A stretch of DNA of 64,000 nucleotides. It comes from a phage. Made by a program: the position numbers and the translations under genes. Location of the stretch: sequence record PZ452608.1; one strand, given 5' to 3'. The notes below the pieces were generated by a model. That model was given only the letters and a program-made list of their open reading frames with translations. It was not told the origin of the DNA and did no database searches. This document shows positions 4,240 to 48,109 of this stretch, piece by piece (position 1 is the stretch's first letter; each line of letters begins with the position of its first letter).

Positions 4240-4480
4240 TACCATCCACCCATACCGTGCCACACCACACCGGACCGTACCATGCCCAACCCTACTACAC
4301 CAGACCTTATTAAAAGACCCTCTCCAAAGACCTTTTAAAAAGGTAAGTCTCATTTTAATGTAGCTGAGACTAACTACCCATACATTACCGCACCATATTA
4401 TACCCTACCCCACCATACTTCACTGCACCGAGCCACGCATTACATCACTTAAAAACCCTTTTCAAAGACTCTTAAGTGAT
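4240..4480. repeat. intergenic repeat copy 2 (same core as 2921-2990)
   Basis: Direct repeat of copy 1 including the AGTCTCA...TGAGACT hairpin; G-poor flanks. Confidence 0.55.
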
Positions 4481-4695
4481 GCTGGTGAGTACCCGTTGGT
4501 TTATGATGCTCAGTATACTCACCAAATTTTCTATGTCAACAACTTTTATAAAAAAGTTCTGATAGCTATATGCGTCACGAAACAAAAGATTGTAAACAAG
4601 ACACCCATTGCAAAAGATGTGTCCAAAAGCTTACTTGCAACGTATGACAATACAAAGACAACCAGTATAAACAAAATGACTGTACTGAACATAGT

Positions 4696-9735: not shown

Positions 9736-9795
9736 TTTTACTCCCTCTAAAATCATTAACCTCATACATTACTGCAAAAAATTATAAAAAGCAAG

Positions 9796-9830
9796 TTGAC
9801 AATGTACTTGACAAGGTGTTAATCTTTGCG
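9796..9830 (+). promoter_or_regulatory. tandem TTGACA promoter module at divergent junction
   Basis: GTTGACAATGTACTTGACAAGGTGT; near-identical module at 55802-55840. Confidence 0.45.
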
Positions 9831-9992
9831 AAGTGGGTTTTTACTTAAAAGGTTACTTAACAGTTTAACTATACAGATACTTTAAAACTCTTAAAAGATT
9901 ATTTAATAGCTTTTAAAAAGCTTTAAAGTATAACGTATAGAATACGTTAAGATAAAAGATTAAAACTTAATAGTTACTTAAAAGAGGCTTAC

Positions 9993-10415
9993 ATGCAGAA
10001 AATGTTTGTTCACCCAGACATAGCTGACTTTGTTAGAGCTTTGCAGAAGTTGGAAGAACTTGACATTGCTGCTCAACGGGAATATGCTCACCATCACAGG
10101 AGAATGGTTGATATACAACATGAAATAGAGTTATCAGAAGACTATGAAGATGACTTAAAATGCTCTGTGTTCGAGCATATGAAAGACGTTGCTATAGCTA
10201 GACGTAAAGCTAAAGATACAGTTGCTTTACTAGATTCTCTTAAAAAGAGGTTGCAAAGTGGTACAGACCTGTGTAATCTAGCATCACTGATTAACGATGT
10301 TGAAACTTCTTGGGACAGGCATTACTATCCACGTTCTGAAAAGACACTTGACTTTTCTTCATCTGAAAACTTAAAATGCTCTAGAAAGAAACTTAACCAA
10401 CTGAGAGAGAAATAA
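9993..10415 (+). CDS. hypothetical protein
   Basis: 140-aa ORF, first gene of plus-strand block. Confidence 0.45.
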   Translation: MQKMFVHPDIADFVRALQKLEELDIAAQREYAHHHRRMVDIQHEIELSEDYEDDLKCSVFEHMKDVAIARRKAKDTVALLDSLKKRLQSGTDLCNLASLINDVETSWDRHYYPRSEKTLDFSSSENLKCSRKKLNQLREK

Positions 10416-10416
10416 T

Positions 10417-11217
10417 ATGAATACTACTGTAGACCAAATGCTTAAAGAAAAAGGTATTGATGAAGCATTTTTAATCAATGCTGTAGAAAGCATGGCTATG
10501 ATTCTTCGTGGAAATAACTATACAGAACAGTTTATGCCAAAAAGCTATAACTTGCCTGAAGATAAAACTGATAACGGTGCTTTTGCAGAGCAGGTTAATA
10601 TGATGTTGTCAGATACTACACTTGCCCTTGCATCTATTGCAGTCGGTGTTGATGCGCTTGCAGAGTTCATTTTTTATGAAATGCAAAAGAATGACTATAT
10701 CAGGATGTCAGATGAAGAAAAGGAACTATTGCTGACTAAGGATACTGATTTCCTTATTGACACACTAATCTCATCAACAAGTGCTGTTATGGCAGTTCTT
10801 GAGAAGCGCATGGAAGAGAAGTTGTCACGGTATGAAAAACTTGATTGGGGCGTAGAAGAGTTAAGCCCACGAATCAAAGAAATTATCCAGCAAACTAAAG
10901 AGTCTTTGGAAGAAGCTGTTGAAAATGACTCTGTAGCTGATATAGAACCTCTTCAGGTGAAAGTTGCACTGATGATTCCAGCTATCTCTACGATGATGAA
11001 TATCGTTGCACTAATCCAACTTTCACAGATGATGGGTGTAAGTATTGAGTTCATTGAAGAGATGACTGGTGGCGTTAGTATGCAAGCAATCAATGATGTT
11101 TTGGTGAACATCGGTGCTTCAATCATTGAAGAGAAACTACGCATTAACTTCGGTGATGATTTTGTGAAGCAAATCTCAGCTATGGCTGAAAAAGAGTCTG
11201 CTGAGCAACTGCACTAA
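10417..11217 (+). CDS. hypothetical protein
   Basis: 266-aa ORF. Confidence 0.45.
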   Translation: MNTTVDQMLKEKGIDEAFLINAVESMAMILRGNNYTEQFMPKSYNLPEDKTDNGAFAEQVNMMLSDTTLALASIAVGVDALAEFIFYEMQKNDYIRMSDEEKELLLTKDTDFLIDTLISSTSAVMAVLEKRMEEKLSRYEKLDWGVEELSPRIKEIIQQTKESLEEAVENDSVADIEPLQVKVALMIPAISTMMNIVALIQLSQMMGVSIEFIEEMTGGVSMQAINDVLVNIGASIIEEKLRINFGDDFVKQISAMAEKESAEQLH

Positions 11218-11235
11218 GTCTTTATAAATCTTACA

Positions 11236-11259
11236 AGCCTCCTTAGTTGGGGGCTTTTT
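11236..11259 (+). terminator. intrinsic terminator
   Basis: AGCCTCC-TTAGTT-GGGGGCT hairpin followed by TTTTT. Confidence 0.5.
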
Positions 11260-11278
11260 AGTAATTAAAGGAGATAAA

Positions 11279-12022
11279 ATGAGTAATATTATCGCATTTA
11301 CTGGAAAGGCACGTTCTGGAAAAGACACCTCATGTTCTATTGTGAAGAACATCTTAGAGGATGAGTACGGCTACAATGTTGCTGTAATGGCCTTTGCAGA
11401 CAACCTTAAACTGTCTGCATCAAAGATATTTGACCTGACTTGGAATGACCTGTATGGTGAAACTAAAGAGACTCCACAAGTATTTGACTTATCATATCCT
11501 GAACTGATGTTTAAAGTTACGGAAGCTATGGAGTTCACCTTCAGAGATGAACGTTACCATATGGACTTCAAGCTTATGTCAGAGTTAACCGGACGATTAA
11601 TCATGGAGCTTAAGAAGGTTGCTAAACCTACCCTATTAACACGTCTGGGATTTAGTAAAAAGTATAAATTCTCATCAAGACAAATTCAACAGATTTGGGG
11701 TACTGAAGTTGTCCGTAAAGTAATGGGCGACAAGTTCTGGTCTAAAGACCTTGAAAAAAGAATGGTTAGATTCCATGAAATGTGCTCACTTAGAAATCAA
11801 TATGGTTTTGTCTTAATCAGTGATTTAAGATTTGACTCTGAAGCTGAATGGCTGAGTAGATTTGCACACCAAACTATTGAAGTAAAAAGAGACAATGTGG
11901 ACAAGGTTTCATCACATGTTTCAGAAAATGGGATTTCTACAAAATATGAGCGTGACATTATTCATAATAATGGTACTCTTGCAGACCTTGAGAACAAGCT
12001 AAGAGCCATCATTAAAGTTTAA
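11279..12022 (+). CDS. deoxynucleoside monophosphate kinase-like protein
   Basis: N-terminal P-loop FTGKARSGKDT resembling T4 gp1 dNMP kinase (SGVKRSGKDT); AGGAG RBS. Confidence 0.55.
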   Translation: MSNIIAFTGKARSGKDTSCSIVKNILEDEYGYNVAVMAFADNLKLSASKIFDLTWNDLYGETKETPQVFDLSYPELMFKVTEAMEFTFRDERYHMDFKLMSELTGRLIMELKKVAKPTLLTRLGFSKKYKFSSRQIQQIWGTEVVRKVMGDKFWSKDLEKRMVRFHEMCSLRNQYGFVLISDLRFDSEAEWLSRFAHQTIEVKRDNVDKVSSHVSENGISTKYERDIIHNNGTLADLENKLRAIIKV

Positions 12023-12030
12023 AAGAGATA

Positions 12031-12231
12031 ATGAAGATGAGAGTAAAAGACAATTTTAAAGTTATTGACCACCGTTTAGTGGAACTCTCATCTCTTTCCA
12101 ATGAGGTAATGATTGAACGTCTTAAGAGAGTTGAATCACGAAGGAAAGAGATTGCAGATGAAATTCATGAACTGGACAAGATTGAAAATGGATTGAAGGC
12201 AGAACTACAACGAAGAGGTGCTAATGTCTAA
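12031..12231 (+). CDS. hypothetical protein
   Basis: 66-aa coiled-coil-like ORF. Confidence 0.35.
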   Translation: MKMRVKDNFKVIDHRLVELSSLSNEVMIERLKRVESRRKEIADEIHELDKIENGLKAELQRRGANV

Positions 12232-14209
12232 AGGTCGTAAATTGAAAGAGGCTGGTCAGTTTGTTGGTCATTGTGCATGTCCACGTTGTGGTTCATCAGA
12301 TGCTGGTTCAATCTACCACCATGACGATGATTCTTATTCGATGACTTGCTTTAGCTGTAACAAAGGTTTCCCAGAGTGGGATTTTGATAAAGGACAAATC
12401 GTGAGCACTTATTCTACTGGTTCAGATAATAAAAACCGTACTTTCCGTGGAATGGATTTAGACGATGTAAAAGAAAACCTAGAAGCAATGGACTTGAAAG
12501 ATAGGAAGATTCCTGCAAAAGTCCTTGAACGCTTAGGTATCAAGGTTGACATTGACAGTGACGGTGAAATTGATGCGCACTTCTATCCAACTTACAAACG
12601 TAATGAAGATGGTAAGCTAGAACATGTTGGCTACCGTGTTCGTCACCGTTACCCAGAAGACCATCCAAAAGAGCACCTACGTGGTAAGCTAAAAGACTTT
12701 TCTGGTGGTGTTGGAGACATTAAAGGTGAACTGGCAATGTTCGGCTCATGGATTGCTCCAGAAGGTGGTAACCGTCTATTCATCTGGGAAGGTGAGATGG
12801 AATGTGCGACAGCAATCTACATGACTTCTTTGGCGATTAAAGATAAGTCTCGTCGTAAGAATTACTGTCACGTATCTGTTCCGTCAGGTGCAAACATTAA
12901 GTCTATCAAAGATAACTATCAGTACATTACATCATTTGATGAAATTTACTTGTGCTTTGATAACGATGAAGCAGGTGCTAAAGCTACCAAAGAGGCTGCT
13001 GGTATCCTACCTATTGAGAAGGTTCGTTTATTCCAGTATCCAGAGGGTGTAAAAGACCTTAACGAATGGTGGACAAAGTTCTATAAAGAGAAAGACACAG
13101 TTCTTGAAGGGTTTAAGCAGCGTATCTACAATGCACCCCGTTACTGCCCTGCTGGAATCAAGAACTTCGCAGATGGTTTTGAGGCAATGAAGAATCGTGG
13201 TCAGATTCCATTGATTCCTTTCCCAGAATCTTTCGGAGATTTGAACAGGCTGACTTATGGTGGTTACGGTTTAGGCGAGATTACAACTCTGGCAGCACCA
13301 TCTTCAGTAGGTAAATCAGCATACACTCGTGAAATGATTTACACTGCTTGGAAAGATACTGATTACAATATTGGTGTAATTCCGGTTGAAGATACCTATG
13401 AAGAGTTGATGGAGATGCTCTGTGCAATCCACCTGAGCAAGCAGATTTCTGAGATTCCTTATGACGAACGTGATTGGGATGAATTGAAGGAAGCACACGC
13501 AGAACTATCTAAAGGTCGTCGTATCCACATCGTAGACCATCAAGGGGCAATTGACCAAGATAACTTGCTGGAGTTTGTTGACTATCTTGTTAACAGCCTT
13601 GATTGTAAGATTATTATTCTTGACCCTATTACGTTGGCTCTGTCACGTTCAGATACGGATGAAGAGGAAGTTTTATCTGAGCTATTGCGTCGTTGCAAAC
13701 GCTACCAGTATGCACAAGTGAACGTCTGTCACGTTCGTAAGAGTGCAGGTGGTCAGAAGGCTAACTCTGAAGGTGGGGATATCTCTGAAGAGGATATTAA
13801 AGGCTCTGGTGCGTATTTCCAGATTTCTATGAACAACATTCTGTTAATGCGTAACAAGGTTGACCCAGACCCTGTTAAGAAAAACTTGACAAAAATCAAA
13901 CTAACTAAATGTCGTCGTCATGGTAAGTCAACGGGTATTGCTGGTCATACTTGGTACAATCCAGATACAGGACGCCTCATCAAAGCATCTGGTTGCGGAG
14001 TTGACATTGATGGTGCAGCAGAAAATATTCGCCAACAGTTTGGTATTGGTGAAGCTGAAGACCATTACGATGACTCTTTGCCACATTATGAGGATGAAGT
14101 GTTTGACCGTGAGACTGGTGAAGTCTATACTGAAGAGCAGCGTCAAAGCTCAACGATTCCACCTGTATTAAGTGAGGATGCAGATGACTGCCCATTCGAA
14201 ACTGAGTGA
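12224..14209 (+). CDS. DNA primase/helicase (zinc-ribbon plus DnaB-like helicase)
   Basis: N-terminal Cys4 zinc ribbon (CPRCGSS...CFSCNKG), Walker A APSSVGKSAY; start at ATG with GAGG RBS rather than track GTG. Confidence 0.7.
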   Translation: MSKGRKLKEAGQFVGHCACPRCGSSDAGSIYHHDDDSYSMTCFSCNKGFPEWDFDKGQIVSTYSTGSDNKNRTFRGMDLDDVKENLEAMDLKDRKIPAKVLERLGIKVDIDSDGEIDAHFYPTYKRNEDGKLEHVGYRVRHRYPEDHPKEHLRGKLKDFSGGVGDIKGELAMFGSWIAPEGGNRLFIWEGEMECATAIYMTSLAIKDKSRRKNYCHVSVPSGANIKSIKDNYQYITSFDEIYLCFDNDEAGAKATKEAAGILPIEKVRLFQYPEGVKDLNEWWTKFYKEKDTVLEGFKQRIYNAPRYCPAGIKNFADGFEAMKNRGQIPLIPFPESFGDLNRLTYGGYGLGEITTLAAPSSVGKSAYTREMIYTAWKDTDYNIGVIPVEDTYEELMEMLCAIHLSKQISEIPYDERDWDELKEAHAELSKGRRIHIVDHQGAIDQDNLLEFVDYLVNSLDCKIIILDPITLALSRSDTDEEEVLSELLRRCKRYQYAQVNVCHVRKSAGGQKANSEGGDISEEDIKGSGAYFQISMNNILLMRNKVDPDPVKKNLTKIKLTKCRRHGKSTGIAGHTWYNPDTGRLIKASGCGVDIDGAAENIRQQFGIGEAEDHYDDSLPHYEDEVFDRETGEVYTEEQRQSSTIPPVLSEDADDCPFETE

Positions 14210-38853: not shown

Positions 38854-39639
38854 ATGGGTATTGTAAAAATAATCAATGGTGATATCTTTGCCGCATTTGA
38901 TAAAGGTAAGTTTGACATCATCGGTCACGGTTGCAACTGTATGAATTTAATGGGTGCAGGTATCGCTGACAAGATTTCTAAACTTTACCCAAAAGCATAT
39001 GAGACCGATACAGAAGTTTATCTATATGCAGGTGGTATAGGACACAAACCCTGTGAAAATTTACTGGGTAATTTCTCTGTAGCACGTTTAAAACAAGGTC
39101 GTATAGCTAACCTTTACACTCAGCTTAAGACTGGTAAAGATGCCCGATACAGTGCTTTAGAGTCATCTTTGAAACAGCTTAACAGATACTGTGAAGTTAA
39201 TCAGTTGAGGAAAGTTGGTTTACCTATGATTGGTGCAGGTATCGGTGGGTTGGACCCTCAAGCCGTCACAGTTATCATCAATCAGGTGATGAAGAGTGTA
39301 GATGTTTATCTATATGTCTATGAAGGAGAGATGTACCACAAGTTACGCTCAGGTTGGAATAACTACTGTGAACCAGAATACTTTGCAGGTGTAGTAACGT
39401 TCAAAGATGATACAGTTACCCTCTTCAGACGAAGAAAAGGTAAGATACATCAAAGTAACCCTCCGGTTGAGAAGATGTCTCTAAGTAACGCTCTAGTTAC
39501 CCACCTGTCGAAGAGCAATCACAGGATAGCCGTAACATTTGGCAGTGATGCAGATACATATATTTATGCAAGAACTGATGAGGATATCGAGACGGTCTTC
39601 TCTTCACCGGAAGTTACCTTCTTAGACGCAAAGAACTAA
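38854..39639 (+). CDS. macro-domain protein (ADP-ribose binding/processing) with C-terminal extension
   Basis: IINGDIFAAFDKGKFDIIGHGCNCMNLMGAGIA and VGLPMIGAGIGGLDP resemble macro-domain motifs. Confidence 0.5.
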   Translation: MGIVKIINGDIFAAFDKGKFDIIGHGCNCMNLMGAGIADKISKLYPKAYETDTEVYLYAGGIGHKPCENLLGNFSVARLKQGRIANLYTQLKTGKDARYSALESSLKQLNRYCEVNQLRKVGLPMIGAGIGGLDPQAVTVIINQVMKSVDVYLYVYEGEMYHKLRSGWNNYCEPEYFAGVVTFKDDTVTLFRRRKGKIHQSNPPVEKMSLSNALVTHLSKSNHRIAVTFGSDADTYIYARTDEDIETVFSSPEVTFLDAKN

Positions 39640-39670
39640 GAAACTCTGTATAATATTCACAATAGACTAA

Positions 39671-39715
39671 GCCTTCCTTATCTGGTAAATTTTTCAGGTA
39701 AGGAGGGCTTTTTCA
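39671..39715 (+). terminator. intrinsic terminator (long imperfect stem)
   Basis: GCCTTCCTTA...TAAGGAGGGC then TTTTT. Confidence 0.4.
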
Positions 39716-39900
39716 TTTCAGGATTGTGCAGGTAGAGTTCTGTAGAGAAATCTGTAGAGAGAATTTTGAACTCCAAAGAGAAAATTCATTTTCAAACTGT
39801 GCAGGTAATCTCCAAAGAGCTTTTTCATTTTCAAAAAGTGCACCCCGCTCAGGTCGGGCAAGAAAAATCATTTTAGAATTGTGCAGGTAGGTTTTTATGG
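39716..39900. repeat. repeat-rich non-coding region
   Basis: TGTGCAGGTA x3 at about 80-bp spacing, TCTGTAGAGA x2, CTCCAAAGAG x2, CCCTCTCCCC x2. Confidence 0.5.
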
Positions 39901-40065
39901 AGAGCCATACCAACCCCTCTCCCCCTATTACCCCCTCTCTCCCCAAAAGTCAAGAGAAAAATTTGTAGCGGATTGAAAAATAATTCTTGATTTGTGTTCT
40001 GTTTTGTGGTAGTCGTGTGCGCACGTTTCATTACAGTTTTTCCAAAAATATTTTTAAAATTTTTC

Positions 40066-40157
40066 TTGACTCTTTGAACGGGGTTATCTAGTATTTGCAT
40101 CAACGGGGAGGGAATGACCTTCCCCACTAAATAAAGTCCTAAACTGGAGATTCAAAA
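40066..40157 (+). promoter_or_regulatory. type A leader module: sigma70-like promoter, 5' stem-loop, conserved leader and SD
   Basis: TTGACT-17-TAGTAT, then CAACGGGGAGGGAATGACCTTCCCC hairpin, then ACTAAATAAAGTCCTAAACTGGAGATTCAAAAATG; repeated before ORFs at 41718, 42582, 43809, 44706, 45304, 45636. Confidence 0.5.
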
Positions 40158-40538
40158 ATGGCATACCGTGCACCTAAATTCATCAACAAAGACAACTTTC
40201 GCAACGCACTGGAGAAGTCACTTGATGAGAATTTTAAAGGTAACGTTATTGTTGTTCACTCGTTCAATTTCAAGTATGATATTAACGGGAATAAAATCAA
40301 CCATTACACGGCGACAATGCTAGATGGTACTCTTTCAAGTGAAAAAGCCATTTTACATGCACTTGCTGGACGTGGTAAAAACCTGATAAGATGCGATAAG
40401 AGACGTTATCAGGGTGGCGCATATGGTTACGATGATGCTGTTTATCATCTTGAAAATATGGGCTATCAAGTAGAAAAAGCTGGAGTGTCTCAAATAATCG
40501 GTAGTGATGGTTATGTAACAATCTTCAAAATTAACTGA
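40158..40538 (+). CDS. hypothetical protein (array gene 1)
   Basis: 126 aa; type A leader with GGAG SD. Confidence 0.5.
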   Translation: MAYRAPKFINKDNFRNALEKSLDENFKGNVIVVHSFNFKYDINGNKINHYTATMLDGTLSSEKAILHALAGRGKNLIRCDKRRYQGGAYGYDDAVYHLENMGYQVEKAGVSQIIGSDGYVTIFKIN

Positions 40539-40626
40539 TAAAGTACTTTACAAGGGGCTTATAGTTCGATAAAGTAAGCCCCAGATAAAGAGCTTTACCA
40601 CTAAATCCTAAATTGGAGATTCAAAA
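40539..40626 (+). promoter_or_regulatory. type B leader module: GC hairpin plus conserved leader and SD
   Basis: TAAAGTACTTTACA-AGGGGCTTA..TAAGCCCC-AGATAAAGAGCTTTACCACTAAATCCTAAATTGGAGATTCAAAAATG; repeated before ORFs at 41006, 42076, 42873, 44143. Confidence 0.45.
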
Positions 40627-40917
40627 ATGGCTACTATCAAAAACGTTGTAATTCCTGTAAAAACTCGTGATGACGCTCGCATCATGGCGAAAAAGTTAGG
40701 CGGGAAAGTGGTTGACAACGGAAAACAATCTGCTGTAAGATGGGGTGTGAAGGCTGATAAACAGTTGAAGTTAAAAAATTCACCAATAAATCTTTTTACA
40801 TGTGTAAACACTATCGGAAAGACAAATGTATACACGAAAAAGGCATATATTAGACGCGTAGCCTTAACATCTCCAATTCGTACAATGAGAGGTTATGCAA
40901 AGCTGAAAATTAGCTGA
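40627..40917 (+). CDS. hypothetical protein (array gene 2)
   Basis: 96 aa basic protein; type B leader. Confidence 0.5.
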   Translation: MATIKNVVIPVKTRDDARIMAKKLGGKVVDNGKQSAVRWGVKADKQLKLKNSPINLFTCVNTIGKTNVYTKKAYIRRVALTSPIRTMRGYAKLKIS

Positions 40918-41005
40918 TAAAGTACTTTACAAGGGGCTTAAAAGTTGGTATCTTAAGCCCCAGATAAAGAGCTTTACCACTCAATCCTAAACTGGAGATT
41001 CAAAA

Positions 41006-41302
41006 ATGAAATTATCAAATAAAGTTCGTGAAAATCTAAGCAAATTACTCAACAAAATTGATTTCATTGAAACATCAAGAAATAGCCATGATGTTATGGA
41101 ATGGTTACACGGCAAAATAAAAGGTCGTCGTGTAGTGATTTGCTTATGGAATAGTTGCAGGGAGTATAAAAAACCTGTATTGCAAGTTAATATCTATGAT
41201 GATACTCTTAAAAGTCCTGTCAAATCTAAAAGTGATTTATTAGAATCTTATGAGATAACTGTAAGTGGCAAAGTATCACGTAAAGAGGAAGCACCATGTT
41301 AA
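41006..41302 (+). CDS. hypothetical protein (array gene 3)
   Basis: 98 aa; type B leader. Confidence 0.5.
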   Translation: MKLSNKVRENLSKLLNKIDFIETSRNSHDVMEWLHGKIKGRRVVICLWNSCREYKKPVLQVNIYDDTLKSPVKSKSDLLESYEITVSGKVSRKEEAPC

Positions 41303-41628
41303 TGACTGGTATCACTGCAATCATTGCCATTTTCGCGCTCTATAAGGCATATAAAGCCTATAATCTAGCAAATAAGGCAATCACACAACAGGTTAGCAAT
41401 AGCCTTGTAATGAGCTTTCTAGAGCGGTTGAGCGATGAACAATTAAAGCGGTTAGAAATGAGCTTCAGATTCAGGGCGAGAACTTATCAAATCAGCGACA
41501 TTTTCAAAGATGATTTTCAATTAGTCGATGATTATAATTCTCTGATAAATGCTTTAAATATTAGTGACTTAAAAGACTATCATACTGTAATTGTTCAAGA
41601 GTTGAGCAAACGAAAACAAAACTGTTGA
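41296..41628 (+). CDS. hypothetical protein (array gene 4)
   Basis: 110 aa; overlaps upstream gene, no leader module. Confidence 0.35.
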   Translation: MLMTGITAIIAIFALYKAYKAYNLANKAITQQVSNSLVMSFLERLSDEQLKRLEMSFRFRARTYQISDIFKDDFQLVDDYNSLINALNISDLKDYHTVIVQELSKRKQNC

Positions 41629-41717
41629 CACTGATTTTTAGATAGATTAAATTACACATCAACGGGGAGGCAATAAACACCCCACTAAATAAAGCCCTTA
41701 AACTAGGAGATTCTAAA

Positions 41718-41990
41718 ATGTATACTACTAACAACGGTCGCACTTTAAATGTCACTCTACGTCACTATGTAGACGGTGTGATGCACTTTGAGGATTTACA
41801 GGCTGAGCAACATATCTTAGATTGGCAAGTCGCAGGACTCCAAAAAACTGCTACCGGATACGGCAAAAAGATTCCAACTAGCTGGAAAGTATACTATGAA
41901 GGACGTTTGCGCAGAATTTATCAGGATGTATGTAGCAATAGCACATCAAGTTACATCATAGTAAAAGGTAAAAAACTGCATTTAGTATAA
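41718..41990 (+). CDS. hypothetical protein (array gene 5)
   Basis: 90 aa; type A leader (TTGACA-17-TAAATT). Confidence 0.5.
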   Translation: MYTTNNGRTLNVTLRHYVDGVMHFEDLQAEQHILDWQVAGLQKTATGYGKKIPTSWKVYYEGRLRRIYQDVCSNSTSSYIIVKGKKLHLV

Positions 41991-42075
41991 AGTACTTTAC
42001 AGGGGGCTTATTAGTCTGTACAGTAAGCCCCAGATAAAGAGCTTTACCACTCAATCCTAAATTGGAGATTCTAAA

Positions 42076-42480
42076 ATGGCTATTAATAATCGTGAGTTGT
42101 CAATCTTAAAAGCACGTTTAACCGTTAATCGAATCAATGTTATTACATCATCAGCACCGGATGAAACATTGCACAACATTATCGGAAAGATTCAAAGCGT
42201 TATCTTAGACGTTGAAAACGTAAAAAACTCATTGGCTGACGTTGCAGCAGGTATCACGCTAGACGGTGCACAATATGAAATGGTCGACATGTTAGGCAAA
42301 TCTAAGGTAATGAATAAAGAGTTAGACTTGAAAATGTTTAGATTTGCCGTGAAAGTGTGGCTATCTGTTGAGTATGATGCTAATTTTGCAATCGCTGATT
42401 TCTTTGCCACTTGGTTACAACGTAATTTGGCAAATCATGACTTTCGTGACATCTGCGACGCAATTTATGCAGAACTCTAA
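42076..42480 (+). CDS. hypothetical protein (array gene 6)
   Basis: 134 aa; type B leader. Confidence 0.5.
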   Translation: MAINNRELSILKARLTVNRINVITSSAPDETLHNIIGKIQSVILDVENVKNSLADVAAGITLDGAQYEMVDMLGKSKVMNKELDLKMFRFAVKVWLSVEYDANFAIADFFATWLQRNLANHDFRDICDAIYAEL

Positions 42481-42581
42481 AAATTTTATTGACACTGATT
42501 TTTAGATAGATTAAATTACACATCAACGGGGAGGGAATGACCTTCCCCACTAAGTAAAGTCCTTAAACTAGGAGATTCAAA

Positions 42582-42779
42582 ATGGCTATTATCAACGGTT
42601 TAACCATTGAAACCACGCACATCAAAGACATTAAAGTTGGTGATGTAGTTCTTTCCCACGGCGTAGAAAAAACAGTCACTGCAAAGGATATCAAAGATGA
42701 TTCTTTCATGGGTAGAACTCTCTTCGGTGATTCTTATTGCTTAGGTTATCTTGCAGTTTTAAAAGTTGTCAAAAATTAA
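42582..42779 (+). CDS. hypothetical protein (array gene 7)
   Basis: 65 aa; type A leader. Confidence 0.45.
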   Translation: MAIINGLTIETTHIKDIKVGDVVLSHGVEKTVTAKDIKDDSFMGRTLFGDSYCLGYLAVLKVVKN

Positions 42780-42872
42780 CTGATAAAGTACTTTACAAGG
42801 GGCTTATAGTTCGATAAAGTAAGCCCCAGATAAAGAGCTTTACCACTAAATCCTTAAACTAGGAGATTCAAA

Positions 42873-43415
42873 ATGAAATGCTTTCACGGTACTACTCAAG
42901 AAAACTTTATCAACCTGATTAATAACGGTGATAAACCATCAGGTGTATGGAATTGTTCGGATATGGACGGCAATTTTTACGTGTACCCAGAAAATAAACT
43001 CTATGGTGATGATGAGGAAGAGATAGCATCGGAAGGTATCCAGCAAGCTCTAGGAAATGCCACTATCACGGCAGCTTTTCAGATGAAAACTCAAAATATT
43101 GTTATCTTAGAACTTGACATTCCAGAGGATGAGCTAAATGATGATTATTCTTGTGATAACATGTCAAATATAGCAAGCTTTACAGAGTACTTTGATGTAA
43201 ATTGGATTAAAAAGGTCTATACAACAGAGTTCAACGCTATGTATTCACCTTTTTGTCTCCCTTCACTGGATAACCCAAATTTAAATTATCTTGATGAAAC
43301 ATTGGAGCTACTTGCTAAAAGTATCCAACAATCCGACAGTATTCAGGTTTTTTGTGACATCATGGATACACTGACAGAAAACATTGTAGAGAGTGATTTA
43401 AAGGTCTTTTTCTAA
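42873..43415 (+). CDS. hypothetical protein (array gene 8)
   Basis: 180 aa acidic protein; type B leader. Confidence 0.5.
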   Translation: MKCFHGTTQENFINLINNGDKPSGVWNCSDMDGNFYVYPENKLYGDDEEEIASEGIQQALGNATITAAFQMKTQNIVILELDIPEDELNDDYSCDNMSNIASFTEYFDVNWIKKVYTTEFNAMYSPFCLPSLDNPNLNYLDETLELLAKSIQQSDSIQVFCDIMDTLTENIVESDLKVFF

Positions 43416-43481
43416 AAACCTATACATTCACCTTATAAACACTGATTAACCCCTTACAGGGGCTTTTAGAGGGCTTAAATC

Positions 43482-43715
43482 ATGCTTACAACCATTTATC
43501 TCATCCTTTCCATTTGTAACGGCCATTCATGTGACTTTAAAGGGCTTGAAGAGTTTACAGGAAGTAAAGAAAATGCTATTCAAGTTTGCCAGATAGCAAG
43601 ACAAGACTACCCCGCCAGTGATGATATACAATGTTACTTTAAGACAGAAGATGACGAAGGAATCTATTTCGACAGTGTCGATGGTCAATATGAAATTATC
43701 ATTGAAAAAGACTAG
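43482..43715 (+). CDS. hypothetical protein with N-terminal hydrophobic segment (array gene 9)
   Basis: 77 aa; preceded by a different hairpin (CCCCTTACAGGGG). Confidence 0.4.
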   Translation: MLTTIYLILSICNGHSCDFKGLEEFTGSKENAIQVCQIARQDYPASDDIQCYFKTEDDEGIYFDSVDGQYEIIIEKD

Positions 43716-43808
43716 ACAAGCCTGATAAAAGTCTGTAAATTATCAATCAACGGGGAGGGAATGACCTTCCCCACTAAGTAAAGTCCTTAAACTAGGAGAT
43801 TCCAAAAA

Positions 43809-44057
43809 ATGTATACTAAAACTCAACTAAAAAACATGGTTAGCAATGGCTTAATGGATGAAGTCTATAAAGAGTGTAGACGCTACGGGGAAATTAAGGA
43901 TAAGACTAGTTATGAGTATACCCACACAATAGACTTTAAAACCAATGAGAAGAGGACTGACCTTGTTACTGTAGTAGTGATTGAGTATAAACGAATTATT
44001 TGGACCTTTGAGCTAGTAAAAGGTGAGTGCACAGAGATAGAATATAAAGACGCTTAA
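43809..44057 (+). CDS. hypothetical protein (array gene 10)
   Basis: 82 aa; type A leader. Confidence 0.5.
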   Translation: MYTKTQLKNMVSNGLMDEVYKECRRYGEIKDKTSYEYTHTIDFKTNEKRTDLVTVVVIEYKRIIWTFELVKGECTEIEYKDA

Positions 44058-44142
44058 AGTACTTTACATGGGGCTTATTAGTCTGTATAGTAAGCCCCAG
44101 ATAAAGAGCTTTACCACTCAATCCTAAACTGGAGATTCTAAA

Positions 44143-44484
44143 ATGGCTTATGTAACCGTAATTACCGATAAAGCTGGCTCATCTTGGTCAACTCAAGTAA
44201 GTGATAAGATGTCACCTATGCAGTGCCTAAAATACTTTGAACAGTGGAACAAAGGCGAGGGTGTAAGCCCCTTTCAAGTGATGCAAATCATCCATACAGA
44301 TAACGAAGGGAATAAAACGACCTTGAACAGTGAATACTACGCAAGCCGTTTTGAAACGAGAAGTAAAACAATGAAGCTTTTACGTGAATCCGGTTATGCA
44401 CATATTGCCGCTTTAATCTGGGATGACCTGCTAAAAAGTCAGCGTATCAGCTATGTAAAGCCTGAAAAAATCTTCATAAGTTAA
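44143..44484 (+). CDS. hypothetical protein (array gene 11)
   Basis: 113 aa; type B leader. Confidence 0.5.
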   Translation: MAYVTVITDKAGSSWSTQVSDKMSPMQCLKYFEQWNKGEGVSPFQVMQIIHTDNEGNKTTLNSEYYASRFETRSKTMKLLRESGYAHIAALIWDDLLKSQRISYVKPEKIFIS

Positions 44485-44705
44485 TCAATAACTTACAAAA
44501 AACTTTTAAAAAAGTGTTGACAATACCCATTGACATTGGTAACTTTGTTCGAGGGGGTTATCTAAAAGGGATTCACTTAATAGATTCTTTATAGATAAAC
44601 TTAAAAAATTGCTTGCAAAGGCAAATCAAAACAAGTATAGTACTAATCAACGGGGAGGGAATGACCTTCCCCACTAAGTAAAGTCCTTAAACTAGGAGAT
44701 TCAAA

Positions 44706-45236
44706 ATGAACAAGTTTCAAGCTATCAACTACATTCGCTCATCTAACGTTATGACTAAACCCGTTAAAGATACCTTCGAATTTCGTTGCAACGGTGTACA
44801 CTTTGCAACTATCACTAAATCAGAAAACGGGGCTTATTATATACATCGTCGTAATGTTTCTACTGTTGTAGTATCTCACTTTATGCAAGCTGTAGCAGAA
44901 CTGTTACCGCTATTCTTAGGTATTTACTTAGATGAGTGTAAAAACGTTCGCAACCACGTTAAAGACCTTTTAAATGGTTATAAAATGGCTTATGAACGTT
45001 CTATCAAGAATCTTAACAAGTTCTATAAAGCCCCTGAAAACACCGTATCAATAGCTTATGATGTAAGTGGTGAAATGGTCAACCTCTCCAATGTAGAACA
45101 AATTGGCCTTTATGATTTACGTCCTAGCGGTTATTCTAAGACTCTCGGTGAAGGCTTATCCTTCAATATCAAGAACTTAGAAAAAACTTTAAAAGATATT
45201 GAAAAAGATATTGACGAGACAATCAAAAGTCTGTAA
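44706..45236 (+). CDS. hypothetical protein (array gene 12)
   Basis: 176 aa; type A leader with TTGCAA-17-TATAGT. Confidence 0.5.
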   Translation: MNKFQAINYIRSSNVMTKPVKDTFEFRCNGVHFATITKSENGAYYIHRRNVSTVVVSHFMQAVAELLPLFLGIYLDECKNVRNHVKDLLNGYKMAYERSIKNLNKFYKAPENTVSIAYDVSGEMVNLSNVEQIGLYDLRPSGYSKTLGEGLSFNIKNLEKTLKDIEKDIDETIKSL

Positions 45237-45303
45237 ATTGTCAATCAACGGGGAGGGATTAACCTTCCCACTAAGTAAAGTCCTTAAACTAGGAGATTCA
45301 AAA

Positions 45304-45567
45304 ATGGAACACGTAGAATTAACCACACTATTGCAGATTGCAACTGACAAAGAAGACGTAGCGTTGTTTCACCGTATCGAAAGTGATTTGTTCAATGGTG
45401 AAATCATTAAAGAATCTTACGAAGTTGTCGGATTCAAAGATGGTAAAGCATTTGGCTTTTTTGACCTCGACAAAAGCAAAGCGGTTACAATGTACGATGT
45501 TCTATCTTGTGAAATTCTGACAAAATACAACGAAAAAAGGCTTGCAACCTACGCCAATATGCAGTAA
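45304..45567 (+). CDS. hypothetical protein (array gene 13)
   Basis: Start at ATG (MEHVELT) right after type A leader rather than the upstream in-frame ATG of the track ORF. Confidence 0.45.
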   Translation: MEHVELTTLLQIATDKEDVALFHRIESDLFNGEIIKESYEVVGFKDGKAFGFFDLDKSKAVTMYDVLSCEILTKYNEKRLATYANMQ

Positions 45568-45635
45568 ATTACTAAACAACGGGGAGGGAATGACCTTCCC
45601 CACTAAATAAAGTCCTAAACTGGAGATTCTAAATT

Positions 45636-45884
45636 ATGTCAACTATCCGCGTAACTGTTAATGCTTATGGCTGCCACCAACTTGATGCAAAATTCGATAT
45701 CGGTGGAACAGATAACACCTTTGACCTTATCAAAATGCTGATTCAGCAGGTGATACCAGATTATAACCCTACTGATGACTTCTGGAAAGATGCCGTAAAA
45801 GAAGCCATAAACGAGGAATCTCACTACCATTATTGGGGTGACTTGATTGTCTCTCTGTACTACAGCAAACAAGGTTACAACTAA
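45636..45884 (+). CDS. hypothetical protein (array gene 14)
   Basis: 82 aa; type A leader. Confidence 0.5.
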   Translation: MSTIRVTVNAYGCHQLDAKFDIGGTDNTFDLIKMLIQQVIPDYNPTDDFWKDAVKEAINEESHYHYWGDLIVSLYYSKQGYN

Positions 45885-45891
45885 TCGACGC

Positions 45892-45948
45892 AGCGGGGCT
45901 AAATAGCCCCAGATACCTGAAAAGCTCCTTCTCATAGGGGCTTTTTTA
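45892..45948 (+). terminator. tandem terminator hairpins ending plus-strand block
   Basis: GGGGCTAAATAGCCCC then AGCTCC..GGGGCTTTTTT. Confidence 0.45.
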
Positions 45949-45959
45949 CGTCTATAAAG

Positions 45960-47450
45960 AGACTCTATACAATCCCTTTCCTTTCCTTCCTAGAATCTAT
46001 CCCGTACCTTAAAAGCAATAACTCTATAGCTTACTCTATAGCCCCTTATCAAATCAACTTAAATATAAGCCCATAACCCGAAAGGGAAGGGCAACCATTT
46101 AAACGCTCTATAAAGCCCTATAACAGCCTTATCAACCTAACTTAAGCAATCATATTAACCCACTCTAAAAAGCCCTTTATAGAGCTTTCTAGAGCCTTAA
46201 AAGAATCTTATAAGGGTACAAGCTTATAAGCTGGCTAGTATCTTGTGAATATCTAAACAACCCCTTGATAGTCACTAAAAAGTATGTTATAGGGGCTATA
46301 GAGTTACTTCAAAGTTACGTAAAAAGAGCTATAAAGTTACGTAAATGCTAGCCCCCTTAACATTTTCTTAACAATTTCTTAACAATCCCTACATAGTTAT
46401 GCTTGTTAGAGACTTGTTAGCCCCTTGTTAAATCTCTGTTAAGACCATGTAAAAGCCTTGTAAAAGTCTTTGGCATAGCCTTAAAAGCTTCTGTAAAGCC
46501 CTATAAAGAGCTATCCATACAGTTGAGGGGTAGATACTAGTAAGAGGCTTAAAAGAACTTATAAGGGGCTATAGAGAGCTTTTAAGAGGTATGTTTAAGG
46601 AATCACTAAGAGGGAAAGGGAAACGATAAGAAAAGAGATAGTGACCATGTTAATAGCTTGTTAAAAAGATTAAACACTTGTTAGGAACTTGTTAATTATC
46701 TTAATTGGTATTGTTACCAATCCCTACAAAATAACTCTTTAAAATTAACTTGTTAGCTCTTGTTAGTCATCTGTTAAGATTCTGTAAAGCCTATTCAGCA
46801 CTTGTTAAGAATCTATTAAGCTCTTGTTAGTTCTGTTAAGAAACTGTTAAGACCTTTGAAGAGTTGTTAAGAAGATGTGAGAGTTGTTAAGGAATTGTTA
46901 AGGATATTTTAAAATTCTGCAAAGGGGGTGTTACAGGGCTGTTAAGGGCTACCAAGCAGATATACATCCTAATCAGATATTTTTCAGTTCCTTCAAAGAC
47001 CCTAAAAAAATGACTTGATAGTCCTATTTTATAAAAATTTTAAGATTCTGAATAATTACCCAGACAGTCTTTTAAAAATACAGGTAGAAACAGGCTTATA
47101 AGATACCTTGTTAGTACCGTGTTAGACCTTGTGAGATAAGGTCTGTAAAGGTATTCCTGTTAAGTTTGTTAAAACAGTCTATATAGAGGCTTAGTAGTGT
47201 CTAGTGAACACCTATAGAGAGTGTCATAGCTTACATAGAGATTAAGAGGTGTATAGAGGCTTCTAAGAGGGTGTAGAGGGATGGTTAAGGCGATTGTATA
47301 GGTTGTTAAGAAGGCTTGTTAGAAGAGTGTTTAGAGGGCTATTTAGAAGGGTTATACAGAGGGGCTATTAAGACCACTAGATAGTTACTAAGACACTATA
47401 TAGTACTATATAACTATATATATATAGAGAGTAAGATTAAGAAGGTTGTT
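45960..47450. repeat. ORF-free repeat-dense region (iteron-like arrays)
   Basis: No ORF of 60 aa or more on either strand; dozens of YTGTTAAG/CTGTTAAG/TTGTTAG units at roughly 10-12 bp spacing (46380-46450, 46640-46900), CTATARAG-type units (45960-46330, 47160-47300), AT-rich ACTATATAGTACTATATAACTATATATATATAGAGAG near 47390-47440. Confidence 0.55.
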
Positions 47451-47523
47451 AAGAAGGATAGATATTTTATTCACATATGATGGTGACCCAGAGGTTGGGA
47501 CAACCGATAAAATTTTATAAAAA

Positions 47524-47550
47524 TTAAAAAGCCCCCGATTAAGGAGGCTC
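47524..47550 (-). terminator. intrinsic terminator for minus-strand block
   Basis: On minus strand GAGCCTCC..GGGGGCT hairpin then TTTTT. Confidence 0.45.
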
Positions 47551-47560
47551 TTAAGATATT

Positions 47561-48109
47561 TTAAATCAGTGTTTCCAGAACTGTTTTTAGTGATGACTTG
47601 GTTGTCTGATAAAAATGAGTAAAGCCATTGTTGTTATCAAATACCTGCATCATGATATCATCCCCCTTGATTGGGTACACTCGGATATCATAGTGAAAAC
47701 CATTAAAGACACAAGAGCCATTACAGAATGCACTAAAGTCATCCACTGAGATATACTCTTCATGTCCTGTGATTTTTATACAAACACCTTTACTCGGTCT
47801 CTTAGGGTTGATATCTTCCATCACAGACATACTCTGTCCACCAAGAGACACCATAGTGACCACTTTACGGTTCTTCTGTCTAAAGTACATCTTAACTTTC
47901 TGCAAAGTGTCTTCATAGAACGGATAAGACCTTTCTACAAAGATTCCTTCAAGTGGCTCTTTACCATTTTCAACTTCTCGGTTATGCCGTACTGCAAAGA
48001 TAATTTGTTCGAACCAGTCAAGATTTTCTTCGGAGAGTGCTTCCCGAACATCCTTCCAGTCAAGGACTAGATAGTTACCTTCAACATCTTTTAAGTTATC
48101 TTTTTCCAT
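47561..48109 (-). CDS. hypothetical protein
   Basis: Track ORF 47561-48184; start trimmed to internal ATG to avoid 62-nt overlap (uncertain). Confidence 0.35.
   Translation of the reverse strand: MEKDNLKDVEGNYLVLDWKDVREALSEENLDWFEQIIFAVRHNREVENGKEPLEGIFVERSYPFYEDTLQKVKMYFRQKNRKVVTMVSLGGQSMSVMEDINPKRPSKGVCIKITGHEEYISVDDFSAFCNGSCVFNGFHYDIRVYPIKGDDIMMQVFDNNNGFTHFYQTTKSSLKTVLETLI

What the first reader, a model, noticed from the sequence alone, without database searches (positions are those of the whole stretch)
40066..45884. Tandem array of 14 small ORFs, each a cassette with one of two conserved hairpin-leader modules
Seen in sequence: about 5.8 kb holds 14 ORFs of 65-180 aa with no recognisable domains. 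Most are preceded by one of two near-identical modules. Type A carries a sigma70-like promoter (TTGACA/TTGCAA-17-TAAATT/TAGTAT), a GGGGAGGG-AATGA-CCTTCCCC stem-loop placed at the predicted 5' end of the transcript, then ACTAAATAAAGTCCTAAACTGGAGATTCAAAAATG. Type B carries TAAAGTACTTTACA, a GGGGCTTA..TAAGCCCC hairpin, then AGATAAAGAGCTTTACCACTMAATCCTAAAYTGGAGATTCWAAAATG. Type B conservation runs back into the last codons and stop of the upstream ORF (..AAAATTARCTGATAAAG), which looks like a recombination joint for cassette shuffling. Gene content between modules is unrelated while modules are near-identical. This is the layout expected of a hypervariable early host-takeover or anti-defence island, and the regulatory logic (promoter plus 5' stabilising hairpin versus internal hairpin) does not match a standard terminator.
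Basis: partly seen in the sequence, partly recalled or inferred. Interest (0 to 1): 0.8.

Follow-up and report, generated by a model that had tools for sequence, protein, structure and literature searches.

The report
Promoter–hairpin gene cassettes in phage wV8
A 5.8-kb stretch of E. coli phage wV8 holds 14 small unknown genes, most with their own near-identical promoter-plus-hairpin-plus-ribosome-site module; this matches the "PeSL" cassettes already described in T4-like phages, here found in the unrelated Felix O1 group.

Summary
The window is Escherichia phage wV8 (Felixounavirus). Window 40066-45884 holds 14 small + strand ORFs from 14 different unknown-function PHROG families. Twelve are preceded by one of two repeat modules, 7 type A and 5 type B, which occur nowhere else in the genome.

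TTTACA-N17-TAnnnT is kept in all 33 unique copies from 14 genomes, and the hairpin sits between -35 and -10. In type A the hairpin starts about 2-4 nt after the predicted transcript start. Both layouts match the promoter-early stem-loops (PeSLs) of T4-like phages.

The type B stem shows compensatory changes, with 30 G·U pairs against 0 A·C. That points to a + strand RNA role.

Across 13 relatives the gene order is collinear, but cassettes come and go (9-19 per genome). 89 of 96 homology breakpoints lie in modules. An 83-nt exact repeat has overwritten the last codons of gp20.

Early timing is only partly supported, and an anti-defence role is untested. The repeats are already annotated as plain direct repeats.

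Verdict: a new member of a known kind, of moderate interest.

The parts
40066..45884 (+). Whole cassette array: 14 small ORFs (wV8 gp14-gp27) and 12 promoter/stem-loop/leader modules
40066..40157 (+). Type A module 1, upstream of gp14. TTGACT-N17-TAGTAT (40066-40094); hairpin GGGGAGGGAATGACCTTCCCC (40105-40125); leader with SD GGAG.
40158..40538 (+). gp14, 126 aa, phrog_4495, function unknown
40527..40626 (+). Type B module 1, upstream of gp15. AT-rich 5' edge overlaps the gp14 stop. TTTACA (40547)-N17-TAAAGT (ends 40575). Hairpin 40554-40582. Predicted start near 40583. Leader AGATAAAGAGC...GGAGATTC.
40627..40917 (+). gp15, 96 aa, phrog_5089
40906..41005 (+). Type B module 2, upstream of gp16. 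TTTACA (40926)-N17-TATCTT; hairpin 40933-40961.
41006..41628 (+). gp16 (98 aa) and overlapping gp17 (110 aa). They form a two-gene cassette adjacent in all but two of the relatives compared (IME338 lacks gp16; LF82P3 lacks both).
41625..41717 (+). Type A module 2, upstream of gp18. TTGACA contains the TGA stop of gp17. N17-TAAATT. Weakened hairpin 41664-41683 (-7.5 kcal/mol).
41718..41990 (+). gp18, 90 aa, phrog_3436
41986..42075 (+). Type B module 3, upstream of gp19. TTTACA (41996)-N17-TACAGT; hairpin 42003-42031.
42076..42480 (+). gp19, 134 aa, phrog_4327
42489..42581 (+). Type A module 3, upstream of gp20. TTGACA-N17-TAAATT; hairpin 42528-42548.
42582..42779 (+). gp20, 65 aa, against 67 aa in six relatives. 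Its last codons were overwritten by the gp14-type flank of the 83-nt repeat.
42772..42872 (+). Type B module 4, upstream of gp21. TTTACA (42792)-N17-TAAAGT; hairpin 42799-42827. Positions 42772-42854 are identical to 40527-40609.
42873..43415 (+). gp21, 180 aa, phrog_3303, homologue of Bas63 g107. The model gives weak matches to the ADP-ribosyltransferase fold.
   Evidence: preprint 10.1101/2024.10.10.617714
43449..43466 (+). Canonical T-run terminator (CCCCTTACAGGGGCTTTT) between gp21 and gp22. It replaces a module here.
43482..43715 (+). gp22, 77 aa, phrog_4640. Always found paired with gp21 in relatives.
43713..43808 (+). Type A module 4, upstream of gp23. TAGACA contains the TAG stop of gp22. 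N17-TAAATT; hairpin 43752-43772.
43809..44057 (+). gp23, 82 aa, phrog_23636. Present in only 3 of the 13 genomes in the cassette map.
44053..44142 (+). Type B module 5, upstream of gp24. TTTACA (44063)-N17-TATAGT; hairpin 44070-44098.
44143..44484 (+). gp24, 113 aa, phrog_4318
44613..44705 (+). Type A module 5, upstream of gp25. TTGCAA-N17-TATAGT; hairpin 44652-44672.
44706..45236 (+). gp25, 176 aa, phrog_4725
45211..45303 (+). Type A module 6, upstream of gp26. TTGACG lies inside gp25. The -10 TAAATT contains the TAA stop of gp25. Hairpin 45250-45269.
45304..45567 (+). gp26, 87 aa, phrog_7022
45542..45635 (+). Type A module 7, upstream of gp27. TTGCAA lies inside gp26. The -10 TAAATT contains the TAA stop of gp26. 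Hairpin 45581-45601.
45636..45884 (+). gp27, 82 aa, phrog_4559, last cassette
45895..45948 (+). End of the array. A type-B-like hairpin relic (GGGGCTAAATAGCCCC+AGATA, 45895-45915) is followed by a T-run terminator.
   Evidence: terminators annotated at the same place in ASO1B and Barry

Best explanation
The region is a hyperplastic accessory-gene array. Each small ORF, or ORF pair, is an autonomous cassette. It is served by a composite module with four parts: an AT-rich edge holding the upstream stop codon, a host sigma70-type promoter, a G/C-clamped stem-loop, and a conserved translation-initiation leader.

There are two architectures.
- Type A places the stem-loop just after the start site. 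Its own transcript therefore begins with a 5'-terminal hairpin preceded by only about 2-4 unpaired nt. I infer that this protects the transcript from 5'-end-dependent decay.
- Type B places the stem-loop between -35 and -10, overlapping the -10. Its own transcript starts just 3' of the hairpin. Only read-through RNA from the upstream cassette carries the hairpin. I infer that it acts there as an attenuator or as a barrier to 3' exonucleases.

The roughly 90-nt modules are near-identical and all point the same way, so they also act as portable homology. Recombination and gene conversion between them delete, duplicate, insert or replace cassettes without breaking expression. This is the PeSL mechanism proposed for T4-like phages.

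Shown here: the anatomy, its conservation, the covariation, and the breakpoint pattern. Inferred: promoter activity, the RNA roles of the hairpins, and that the modules cause the recombination rather than merely marking where it is tolerated.
For: Promoters:
- Every type A anchor in 14 genomes (55 of 55) has TAnnnT exactly 5 nt upstream and a hexamer matching TTGACA at 4 or more of 6 positions 17 nt further up. Background frequencies are 2.4% and 5.5%.
- In type B, 33 of 33 unique copies keep TTTACA, a 17-nt spacer (18 in one copy) and TAnnnT, with 11 different hexamers.
- In the type B loop the only invariant columns are the TA of that hexamer.
- An independent scan finds all 5 type B promoters and 6 of the 7 type A promoters in the window.
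- Stop codons are embedded in the -35 (TGA, TAG) or the -10 (TAA).

Hairpins:
- The type B 9-bp stem is paired in 348 of 351 cells over 39 unique hairpins. With the 3' partner slid by 1-3 nt, 126-192 cells pair.
- Double compensatory changes occur at stem positions 3, 7, 8 and 9.
- There are 30 G·U pairs and 0 A·C, so selection acts on the + strand RNA. One search shows the GGTG/CACC stem form in an Erwinia phage.
- All 36 type A hairpin variants fold with the stem starting at nucleotide 4-6 of the folded RNA. That RNA begins at the second A of TCAAC, or one base later in the variant-aware register. Energies are -4.2 to -15.2 kcal/mol.

Hypervariability and recombination:
- Coverage of the array by relatives at about 88-92% identity ranges from 26% to 100%.
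- The cassette map is collinear, with 9-19 cassettes per genome and about 26 families.
- The 5' half of each module travels with the upstream gene.
- The two leader variants are found mixed on both module types.
- 89 of 96 HSP ends lie within modules ±8 nt, which cover 24% of the array.
- Tandem cassette duplications occur in Michonne (gp15 family) and Sf14 (gp24 family).
- An 83-nt exact intragenomic repeat has replaced the last codons of gp20.

Distribution and precedent:
- The modules are found only in this array of wV8.
- They are spread across Ounavirinae: 288 phage records for type B and 246 for type A, including Erwinia phages for type B.
- PeSLs are defined with the same parts, with GGGG...CCCC stems and, for the T4/PST pair, a TTTACW-N17-TAYWAT promoter.
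Against: - No transcript 5' or 3' ends, promoter activity or RNA half-lives have been measured for any Ounavirinae phage in the library I could search.
- Module copies are related by descent and by gene conversion. Copy counts therefore overstate independent support.
- Whole-gene indels that survive selection must end in intergenic DNA. Breakpoint enrichment in modules therefore does not prove that the modules cause recombination.
- Type A hairpins show no strand asymmetry in stability: -10.9 kcal/mol on the + strand against -10.6 on the - strand, p = 0.59.
- Neither hairpin has a U-tract, so any terminator or attenuator role would be non-canonical.
- Felix O1 RT-PCR puts several array ORFs at 25 min rather than 5 min.
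Confidence: 0.7

Rival explanations
1. The modules are conserved only because every cassette needs the same strong promoter, hairpin and ribosome site, or a shared regulator binding site. Cassette gain and loss would then come from ordinary illegitimate recombination, filtered by selection for intact genes. The modules would be regulatory and not recombinogenic.
For: The most conserved positions are the functional ones: -35, TA...T, the stem and the SD. Breakpoints in intergenic DNA are expected under selection alone (caveat). Gene order is collinear rather than shuffled.
Against: An 83-nt perfect repeat extends beyond any functional motif into coding sequence and has rewritten the end of gp20. 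The two leader variants are found mixed on both module types. Junctions carry homology to both parental modules; for example Felix O1 locus positions 4376-4401 match both 42562-42587 and 44125-44150 of the window. Tandem duplications are flanked by modules.
Confidence: 0.15
2. The hairpins are RNA-processing or decay signals, for example RNase III or RNase E entry or stop sites. They would cut long polycistronic early transcripts into stable monocistronic mRNAs. The promoter-like hexamers would be secondary or inactive.
For: The type B stem is selected at the + strand RNA level, with 30 G·U against 0 A·C. The hairpins lack U-tracts. True terminators occur only at 39669-39710, 43449-43466 and about 45920-45948, so read-through units spanning several cassettes are plausible.
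Against: This does not explain the invariant TTTACA, the fixed 17-nt spacing, or the TA kept in an otherwise variable loop. It also does not explain the fixed 5-nt offset of the type A hairpin from a -10. Stems of 7-9 bp are short for RNase III, from my own knowledge.
Confidence: 0.1
3. The modules are selfish, MITE-like or REP-like intergenic repeats that have spread within the array. They would have no necessary role in expressing the ORFs.
For: There are many near-identical copies, they contain palindromes, and they are annotated only as direct repeats in the wV8 record and in the Felix O1 paper.
Against: All copies share one orientation. Each ends exactly at an SD and ATG and begins at a stop codon, so the modules supply the only visible expression signals. 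They are confined to one array. They are conserved in position across four genera, and the 5' halves are tied to specific upstream genes.
Confidence: 0.05

Closest known systems
PeSLs (promoter-early stem-loops) of T4-like phages RB49/phi1, T4/PST and KVP40/nt-1 (Arbiol et al. 2010, PMC2839356; Comeau et al. 2014, PMC4122927)
   Same: - A composite intergenic motif with the upstream stop in an AT-rich edge, a sigma70-like promoter with a 17-nt spacer, a GGGG...CCCC stem-loop, and then SD and ATG.
- The stem-loop lies between -35 and -10, overlaps the -10, or lies just downstream of the -10.
- The motifs are concentrated in a hyperplastic region upstream of ORFans.
- Indels and replacements between close relatives are bounded by the motifs.
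- The T4/PST promoter form TTTACW-N17-TAYWAT resembles type B.
   Different: - The host genome belongs to a different subfamily, Ounavirinae.
- blastn with either module returned hits only under Enterobacteriaceae- and Erwinia-phage organism names, all fetched examples being Ounavirinae, plus a few records with other names that were not inspected. It is therefore an analogue, not a demonstrable homologue.
- There are just two sharply defined architectures, and they share a long conserved leader.
- All copies sit in a single array of about 5.8 kb next to the genome end, not in many hyperplastic regions.
- Promoter activity, terminator activity and mini-circles were shown experimentally for PeSLs. 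None has been tested here.
5'-terminal stem-loop mRNA stabilisers (ompA 5' UTR type; Emory, Bouvet and Belasco 1992, from my own knowledge)
   Same: The type A hairpin starts about 2-4 nt from the predicted 5' end. This fits the rule that a 5' hairpin protects only when very few unpaired nucleotides precede it.
   Different: The start site has not been mapped and no stability data exist. The hairpin could equally serve as an attenuator for upstream transcription.
Morons and integron cassettes
   Same: Single accessory genes carry their own expression signals and are gained or lost as units.
   Different: Morons are not flanked by conserved linkers and are often in the opposite orientation. Integrons use an integrase and attC sites with one common promoter. 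Here each cassette has its own promoter, and no integrase was looked for or seen near the array.
Rho-independent terminators
   Same: A G/C-rich hairpin directly after a stop codon. Several GenBank records annotate the module hairpins as terminators, some on the minus strand.
   Different: No U-tract follows either hairpin, and the scan finds none at the modules. Real T-run terminators exist separately, at 39669-39710, 43449-43466 and about 45920-45948.

Membership tests
PeSL (promoter-early stem-loop) cassettes | Sigma70-like -35 and -10 hexamers with a spacer of about 17 nt | tested here: met
   Type A: 55 of 55 anchors. Type B: 33 of 33 unique copies. This is at consensus level only; activity was not measured.
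PeSL (promoter-early stem-loop) cassettes | A stable stem-loop, typically GGGG...CCCC, inside or directly next to the promoter | tested here: met
   In type B the stem lies between -35 and -10 and overlaps the -10. In type A it starts 10-11 nt after the -10.
PeSL (promoter-early stem-loop) cassettes | The upstream stop codon lies in the AT-rich 5' edge, and SD plus start codon lie at the 3' end | tested here: met
   One search shows stops embedded in the -35, the -10 or the AT-rich edge. All 12 modules end in GGAG plus 7-11 nt plus ATG.
PeSL (promoter-early stem-loop) cassettes | Preferential location in a hyperplastic region, upstream of ORFans | tested here: met
   Copies occur only at 40066-45635 of the 88-kb genome. 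All 14 ORFs are of unknown function. The adjacent gp5-gp12 block has no modules.
PeSL (promoter-early stem-loop) cassettes | Insertions, deletions and replacements between close relatives are bounded by the motifs | tested here: met
   89 of 96 HSP ends lie in modules. See also the cassette map and the 83-nt conversion tract.
PeSL (promoter-early stem-loop) cassettes | Experimentally shown promoter and terminator/attenuator activity, and excised mini-circles | not testable with these tools
   Needs reporter assays, 5'/3' end mapping and outward-facing PCR.
PeSL (promoter-early stem-loop) cassettes | Sequence homology to the T4-like PeSLs, or residence in a T4-like genome | tested here: not met
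   The genome is a Felixounavirus. Module blastn listed no record under a T4-like phage name among the organism names shown. It works like a PeSL but is not a demonstrable homologue.
Intrinsic (Rho-independent) terminator | G/C-rich hairpin followed at once by a U-tract | tested here: not met
   The hairpins are followed by ACTAAATAAAG (type A) or AGATAAAGAG (type B). The scan finds no terminator at any module.
5'-terminal stabilising hairpin | Hairpin within about 0-4 nt of the primary transcript 5' end | tested here: inconclusive
   The geometry fits if the start is 7-8 nt after the -10. The start site has not been mapped.
Curated RNA families (Rfam 15) | A covariance-model match at or above the gathering score | tested here: not met
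   There is one chance-level hit in 39400-47700 (E = 0.5) and none at the modules.

The most novel reading that the evidence does not exclude
The two module types form a dedicated, integron-like cassette exchange system of a virulent phage subfamily. Recombination between same-orientation modules would excise circular promoter+ORF units. These could re-enter at any module of a co-infecting Ounavirinae genome. The array next to the genome end would then be an actively exchanging pool of accessory genes shared among phages of Escherichia, Salmonella, Shigella, Citrobacter and Erwinia. The hairpins and an SD-masking mini-helix would give every newcomer the same expression programme.
Probability: 0.2. 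Interest if true: 0.7.

Novelty: new member of a known kind. Interest (0 to 1): 0.42.

Why it matters
PeSL-mediated modular shuffling has been documented only in T4-like phages. Its authors wrote that there was no evidence for it elsewhere (PMC2839356).

Here the same architecture appears in an unrelated subfamily that is widely used for phage typing, biocontrol and therapy (Felix O1, wV8, Bas63). It shows clean covariation and a conversion footprint. This suggests convergent use of promoter/stem-loop linkers as a general way for virulent phages to hold and exchange accessory genes.

It also has practical uses:
- It gives concrete predicted start sites for the 12 module-preceded cassettes (14 uncharacterised genes in all).
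- It marks natural, expression-ready insertion sites for engineering these phages.
- It explains why this region differs so much between otherwise about 90%-identical therapeutic phages.

Tried and rejected
- RNAalifold on plain MAFFT alignments recovered only 6 pairs for type B and 3 for type A, because loop and stem indels shift the register. I replaced it with a register-anchored pair count for type B and per-sequence folds for type A.
- The strand-asymmetry test on type A hairpins was negative. I claim + strand RNA selection only for type B.
- Pfam found nothing above threshold for the 14 ORFs, and PHROGs gave only unknown-function families.
- Rfam found nothing.
- Literature searches for Felix O1 group transcriptomics, stem-loops or hypervariable regions found nothing relevant. 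The wV8 genome paper does not mention repeats, promoters or terminators.
- I fetched VpaE1 and two 'VpaE1_ev' genomes hoping for laboratory-evolved derivatives that would show recent cassette change. Their origin is not stated in the records, so I draw no conclusion beyond added diversity.
- The plain-terminator reading was rejected because no U-tract follows the hairpins.
- The MITE-like reading was rejected because orientation and placement are fixed.

Full report
**Identity of the window**

Window 40000-46000 is 100% identical to Escherichia phage wV8 (EU877232.1, Felixounavirus, Ounavirinae), record 8000-14000. Window position therefore equals record position plus 32000. The GenBank record already marks the modules as direct repeats DR_1 to DR_9, without interpretation. 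The Felix O1 genome paper lists a 57-bp and a 39-bp direct repeat, which are the type B hairpin and the type A promoter, again without comment (PMC3185647). The wV8 paper does not mention them.

**Observation**

Fourteen + strand ORFs of 65-180 aa lie between 40158 and 45884. None reaches a Pfam threshold. They belong to 14 different PHROGs, all of unknown function.

Twelve ORFs are preceded by a module:
- Seven are type A, upstream of gp14, gp18, gp20, gp23, gp25, gp26 and gp27.
- Five are type B, upstream of gp15, gp16, gp19, gp21 and gp24.
- gp17 overlaps gp16, and gp22 follows a T-run terminator.

The module cores occur 5, 5 and 12 times in the window, against 0, 0 and 0.17 in shuffles. 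They occur only at 40066-45635. The remaining 24.7 kb of the genome has none.

**Type A anatomy**

All seven copies have a TTGACA-like -35, a 17-nt spacer, a TAnnnT -10, exactly 5 nt, then (T/A)CAAC and a GGGG...CCCC hairpin. I anchored on the hairpin alone in 14 genomes. All 55 anchors have TAnnnT at the fixed offset and a -35 matching TTGACA at 4 or more of 6 positions, 17 nt upstream. Background frequencies are 2.4% and 5.5%.

The upstream stop codon is often part of the promoter:
- TGA lies inside TTGACA (gp17).
- TAG lies inside TAGACA (gp22).
- TAA lies inside TAAATT (gp25 and gp26).

A start 7-8 nt after the -10 puts the first stem base 2-4 nt from the RNA 5' end. All 36 hairpin variants fold with the stem starting at nucleotide 4-6 of the folded RNA (which begins at the second A of TCAAC, or one base later in the variant-aware register), at -4.2 to -15.2 kcal/mol.

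**Type B anatomy, corrected**

Across 14 genomes there are 71 copies and 33 unique sequences. TTTACA is invariant. The spacer is 17 nt, or 18 in one copy. The next hexamer is always TAnnnT, with 11 different hexamers.

In the alignment, the only invariant columns inside the otherwise variable loop are the TA of that hexamer. This is the conservation pattern of a sigma70 -10 element (my own knowledge). The independent promoter scan calls all five window copies.

The hairpin therefore sits between -35 and -10 and overlaps the -10. The predicted start is the A of AGATAAAG, just 3' of the stem.

**Hairpin covariation**

I used a register-anchored count over 39 unique type B hairpins, representing 90 copies in 18 genomes. 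The results:
- A 9-bp stem pairs in 348 of 351 cells. With the 3' partner slid by 1-3 nt, only 126-192 cells pair.
- Double compensatory changes occur at position 3 (G-C to U-A in an Erwinia phage), at positions 7 and 8 (U-A and A-U swapped), and at position 9 (five pair types).
- There are 30 G·U pairs and no A·C. The stem is therefore selected as + strand RNA.

Type A shows no such strand asymmetry. Rfam has no matching family.

**Shared leader**

Both module types end in the same leader, CCT(T)AAAYT(A)GGAGATTC followed by A-rich sequence and ATG. Only two forms occur: CCT...GGAG (85 copies) and CYTT...AGGAG (50 copies). Mixed forms are never seen. The pyrimidine tract can pair with the SD. 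Erwinia phage copies show CCTT:AAGG and CCTC:GAGG. The helix is weak, at -1 to -4.6 kcal/mol, and the two sites are only 6 nt apart. I regard SD masking as a lead only.

**Comparative genomics**

Of 255 phage records that match the array, only 10 cover at least 80% of it. Relatives at about 88-92% identity cover 26-100% of it, in several pieces.

I made a cassette map for wV8 and 12 relatives (Felixounavirus, Mooglevirus, Suspvirus). It shows one collinear order with single cassettes present or absent. There are 9-19 cassettes per genome and about 26 families. The upstream gp5-gp12 block is tightly packed, conserved and free of modules.

Further patterns:
- The 5' half of each module follows the upstream gene. 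For example, gp22 is always followed by type A, and gp18 always by type B.
- The two leader variants are found mixed on both types.
- 89 of 96 HSP ends, or 46 of 52 distinct positions, fall within modules ±8 nt. Modules so defined are 24% of the array.
- Junctions overlap both parental modules.
- Michonne has a tandem gp15-family duplication and Sf14 a tandem gp24-family duplication. One family occupies two different slots at 40% identity.

In wV8 itself, an 83-nt exact repeat (40527-40609 = 42772-42854) carries the native 3' end of gp14 into gp20. As a result gp20 is 65 aa, against 67 aa in six relatives.

Type B is found in 288 phage records (1445 places), including 29 Erwinia phages. Type A is found in 246 records (1259 places).

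**Comparison with known systems**

PeSLs of T4-like phages are defined by the same parts. These are the upstream stop in an AT-rich edge, a sigma70-like promoter, a GGGG...CCCC stem-loop in one of five positions relative to the promoter, and SD plus ATG. They share the same genomic behaviour: they sit in hyperplastic regions upstream of ORFans and bound the indels between close relatives (PMC2839356). The T4/PST form is TTTACW-N17-TAYWAT (PMC4122927).

Type B is the 'between -35 and -10 / overlapping -10' class. Type A is the 'downstream of -10' class. Every structural PeSL criterion is met. Sequence homology and T4-like residence are not met. Activity and mini-circles are untestable here.

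No paper in the searchable library links PeSL-like elements to the Felix O1 group.

**Function of the genes**

In Felix O1 RT-PCR, ORFs 16, 20, 21 and 22 of the array peak at 5 min, and ORFs 17, 19 and 23 peak at 25 min (ORF mapping).

In Bas63 the array is genes 98-111. Only g107, the gp21 homologue, is discussed; it is more important on E. coli S17-1. All the validated defence counters and triggers named in the preprint text (g40, g77, g79, g80, g84, g85, g123, g130) lie outside the array (preprint 10.1101/2024.10.10.617714).

'Host takeover' is therefore plausible for one cassette. 'Anti-defence' is untested.

**Verdict**

This is a PeSL-type promoter/stem-loop cassette array in a new phage lineage. 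Confidence is about 0.7. The main uncertainty is the complete lack of transcript mapping. A second uncertainty is whether the modules drive recombination or merely tolerate it.

Noticed in passing
window 39713-39885: Four direct copies of TCATTTYNNNANNGTGCA at 39713, 39786, 39825 and 39868 lie between the gp12 terminator and the first cassette promoter. They are unique in the window. The same four-fold repeat (TTTTCATTTT..AA..GTGCATAG) is conserved at the same place in Erwinia phage Coenus. They could be iteron-like or regulator-binding sites. Function is unknown.
   Followed up: partly
window 46351-46953 (within the gene-free stretch 45885-47560): The annotated 581-bp direct terminal repeat of phage Pr103Blw maps here at 88% identity. 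The cassette array therefore ends about 470 nt from the physical end of the genome and is transcribed towards it.
   Followed up: partly
[not shown]
   Followed up: partly
window, last ~25 nt of every module (e.g. 40137-40150, 42562-42576): A pyrimidine tract 6 nt upstream of the SD is complementary to it: TCC:GGA, TCCT:AGGA, and in Erwinia phage CCTT:AAGG and CCTC:GAGG. Only matched forms occur in 135 copies. This could be a weak SD-masking helix (-1 to -4.6 kcal/mol).
   Followed up: partly
window 40527-40609 and 42772-42854: An 83-nt exact intragenomic repeat starts inside coding sequence. It is read as K-I-N-stop in gp14 and K-N-stop in gp20, and it shortens gp20 by 2 aa relative to six relatives. 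This is a gene-conversion footprint.
   Followed up: yes
window 45895-45915: A type-B-like hairpin (GGGGCTAAATAGCCCC followed by AGATA) with no TTTACA promoter and no leader lies after the last cassette, just before the T-run terminator. It looks like a relic of a lost downstream cassette.
   Followed up: no
window 44485-44612: The unusually long spacer between gp24 and gp25 (about 220 nt in Felixounaviruses, about 200 nt in Michonne and SUSP1) has two TTGACA hexamers. It also has a GGGGGTTATCTAAAAG stretch resembling the promoter of module A1 (GGGGTTATCTAGTAT). It may be a degenerate extra promoter.
   Followed up: no
window 39905-39945: A C/T-rich tract (CCAACCCCTCTCCCCCTATTACCCCCTCTCTCCCC) lies in the 518-nt non-coding leader upstream of the array. 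A similar C-rich tract is present in the Erwinia phage.
   Followed up: no
L010 (Michonne) 4563-5250; L012 (Sf14) 9523-10280: Tandem duplications of single cassettes, each copy flanked by modules: the gp15 family in Michonne and the gp24 family in Sf14. This is expected from unequal crossing-over between modules.
   Followed up: partly
(phage collection): One record named as a Staphylococcus phage and one named as a Campylobacter phage carry these Ounavirinae modules. They are probably mislabelled or contaminated records.
   Followed up: no
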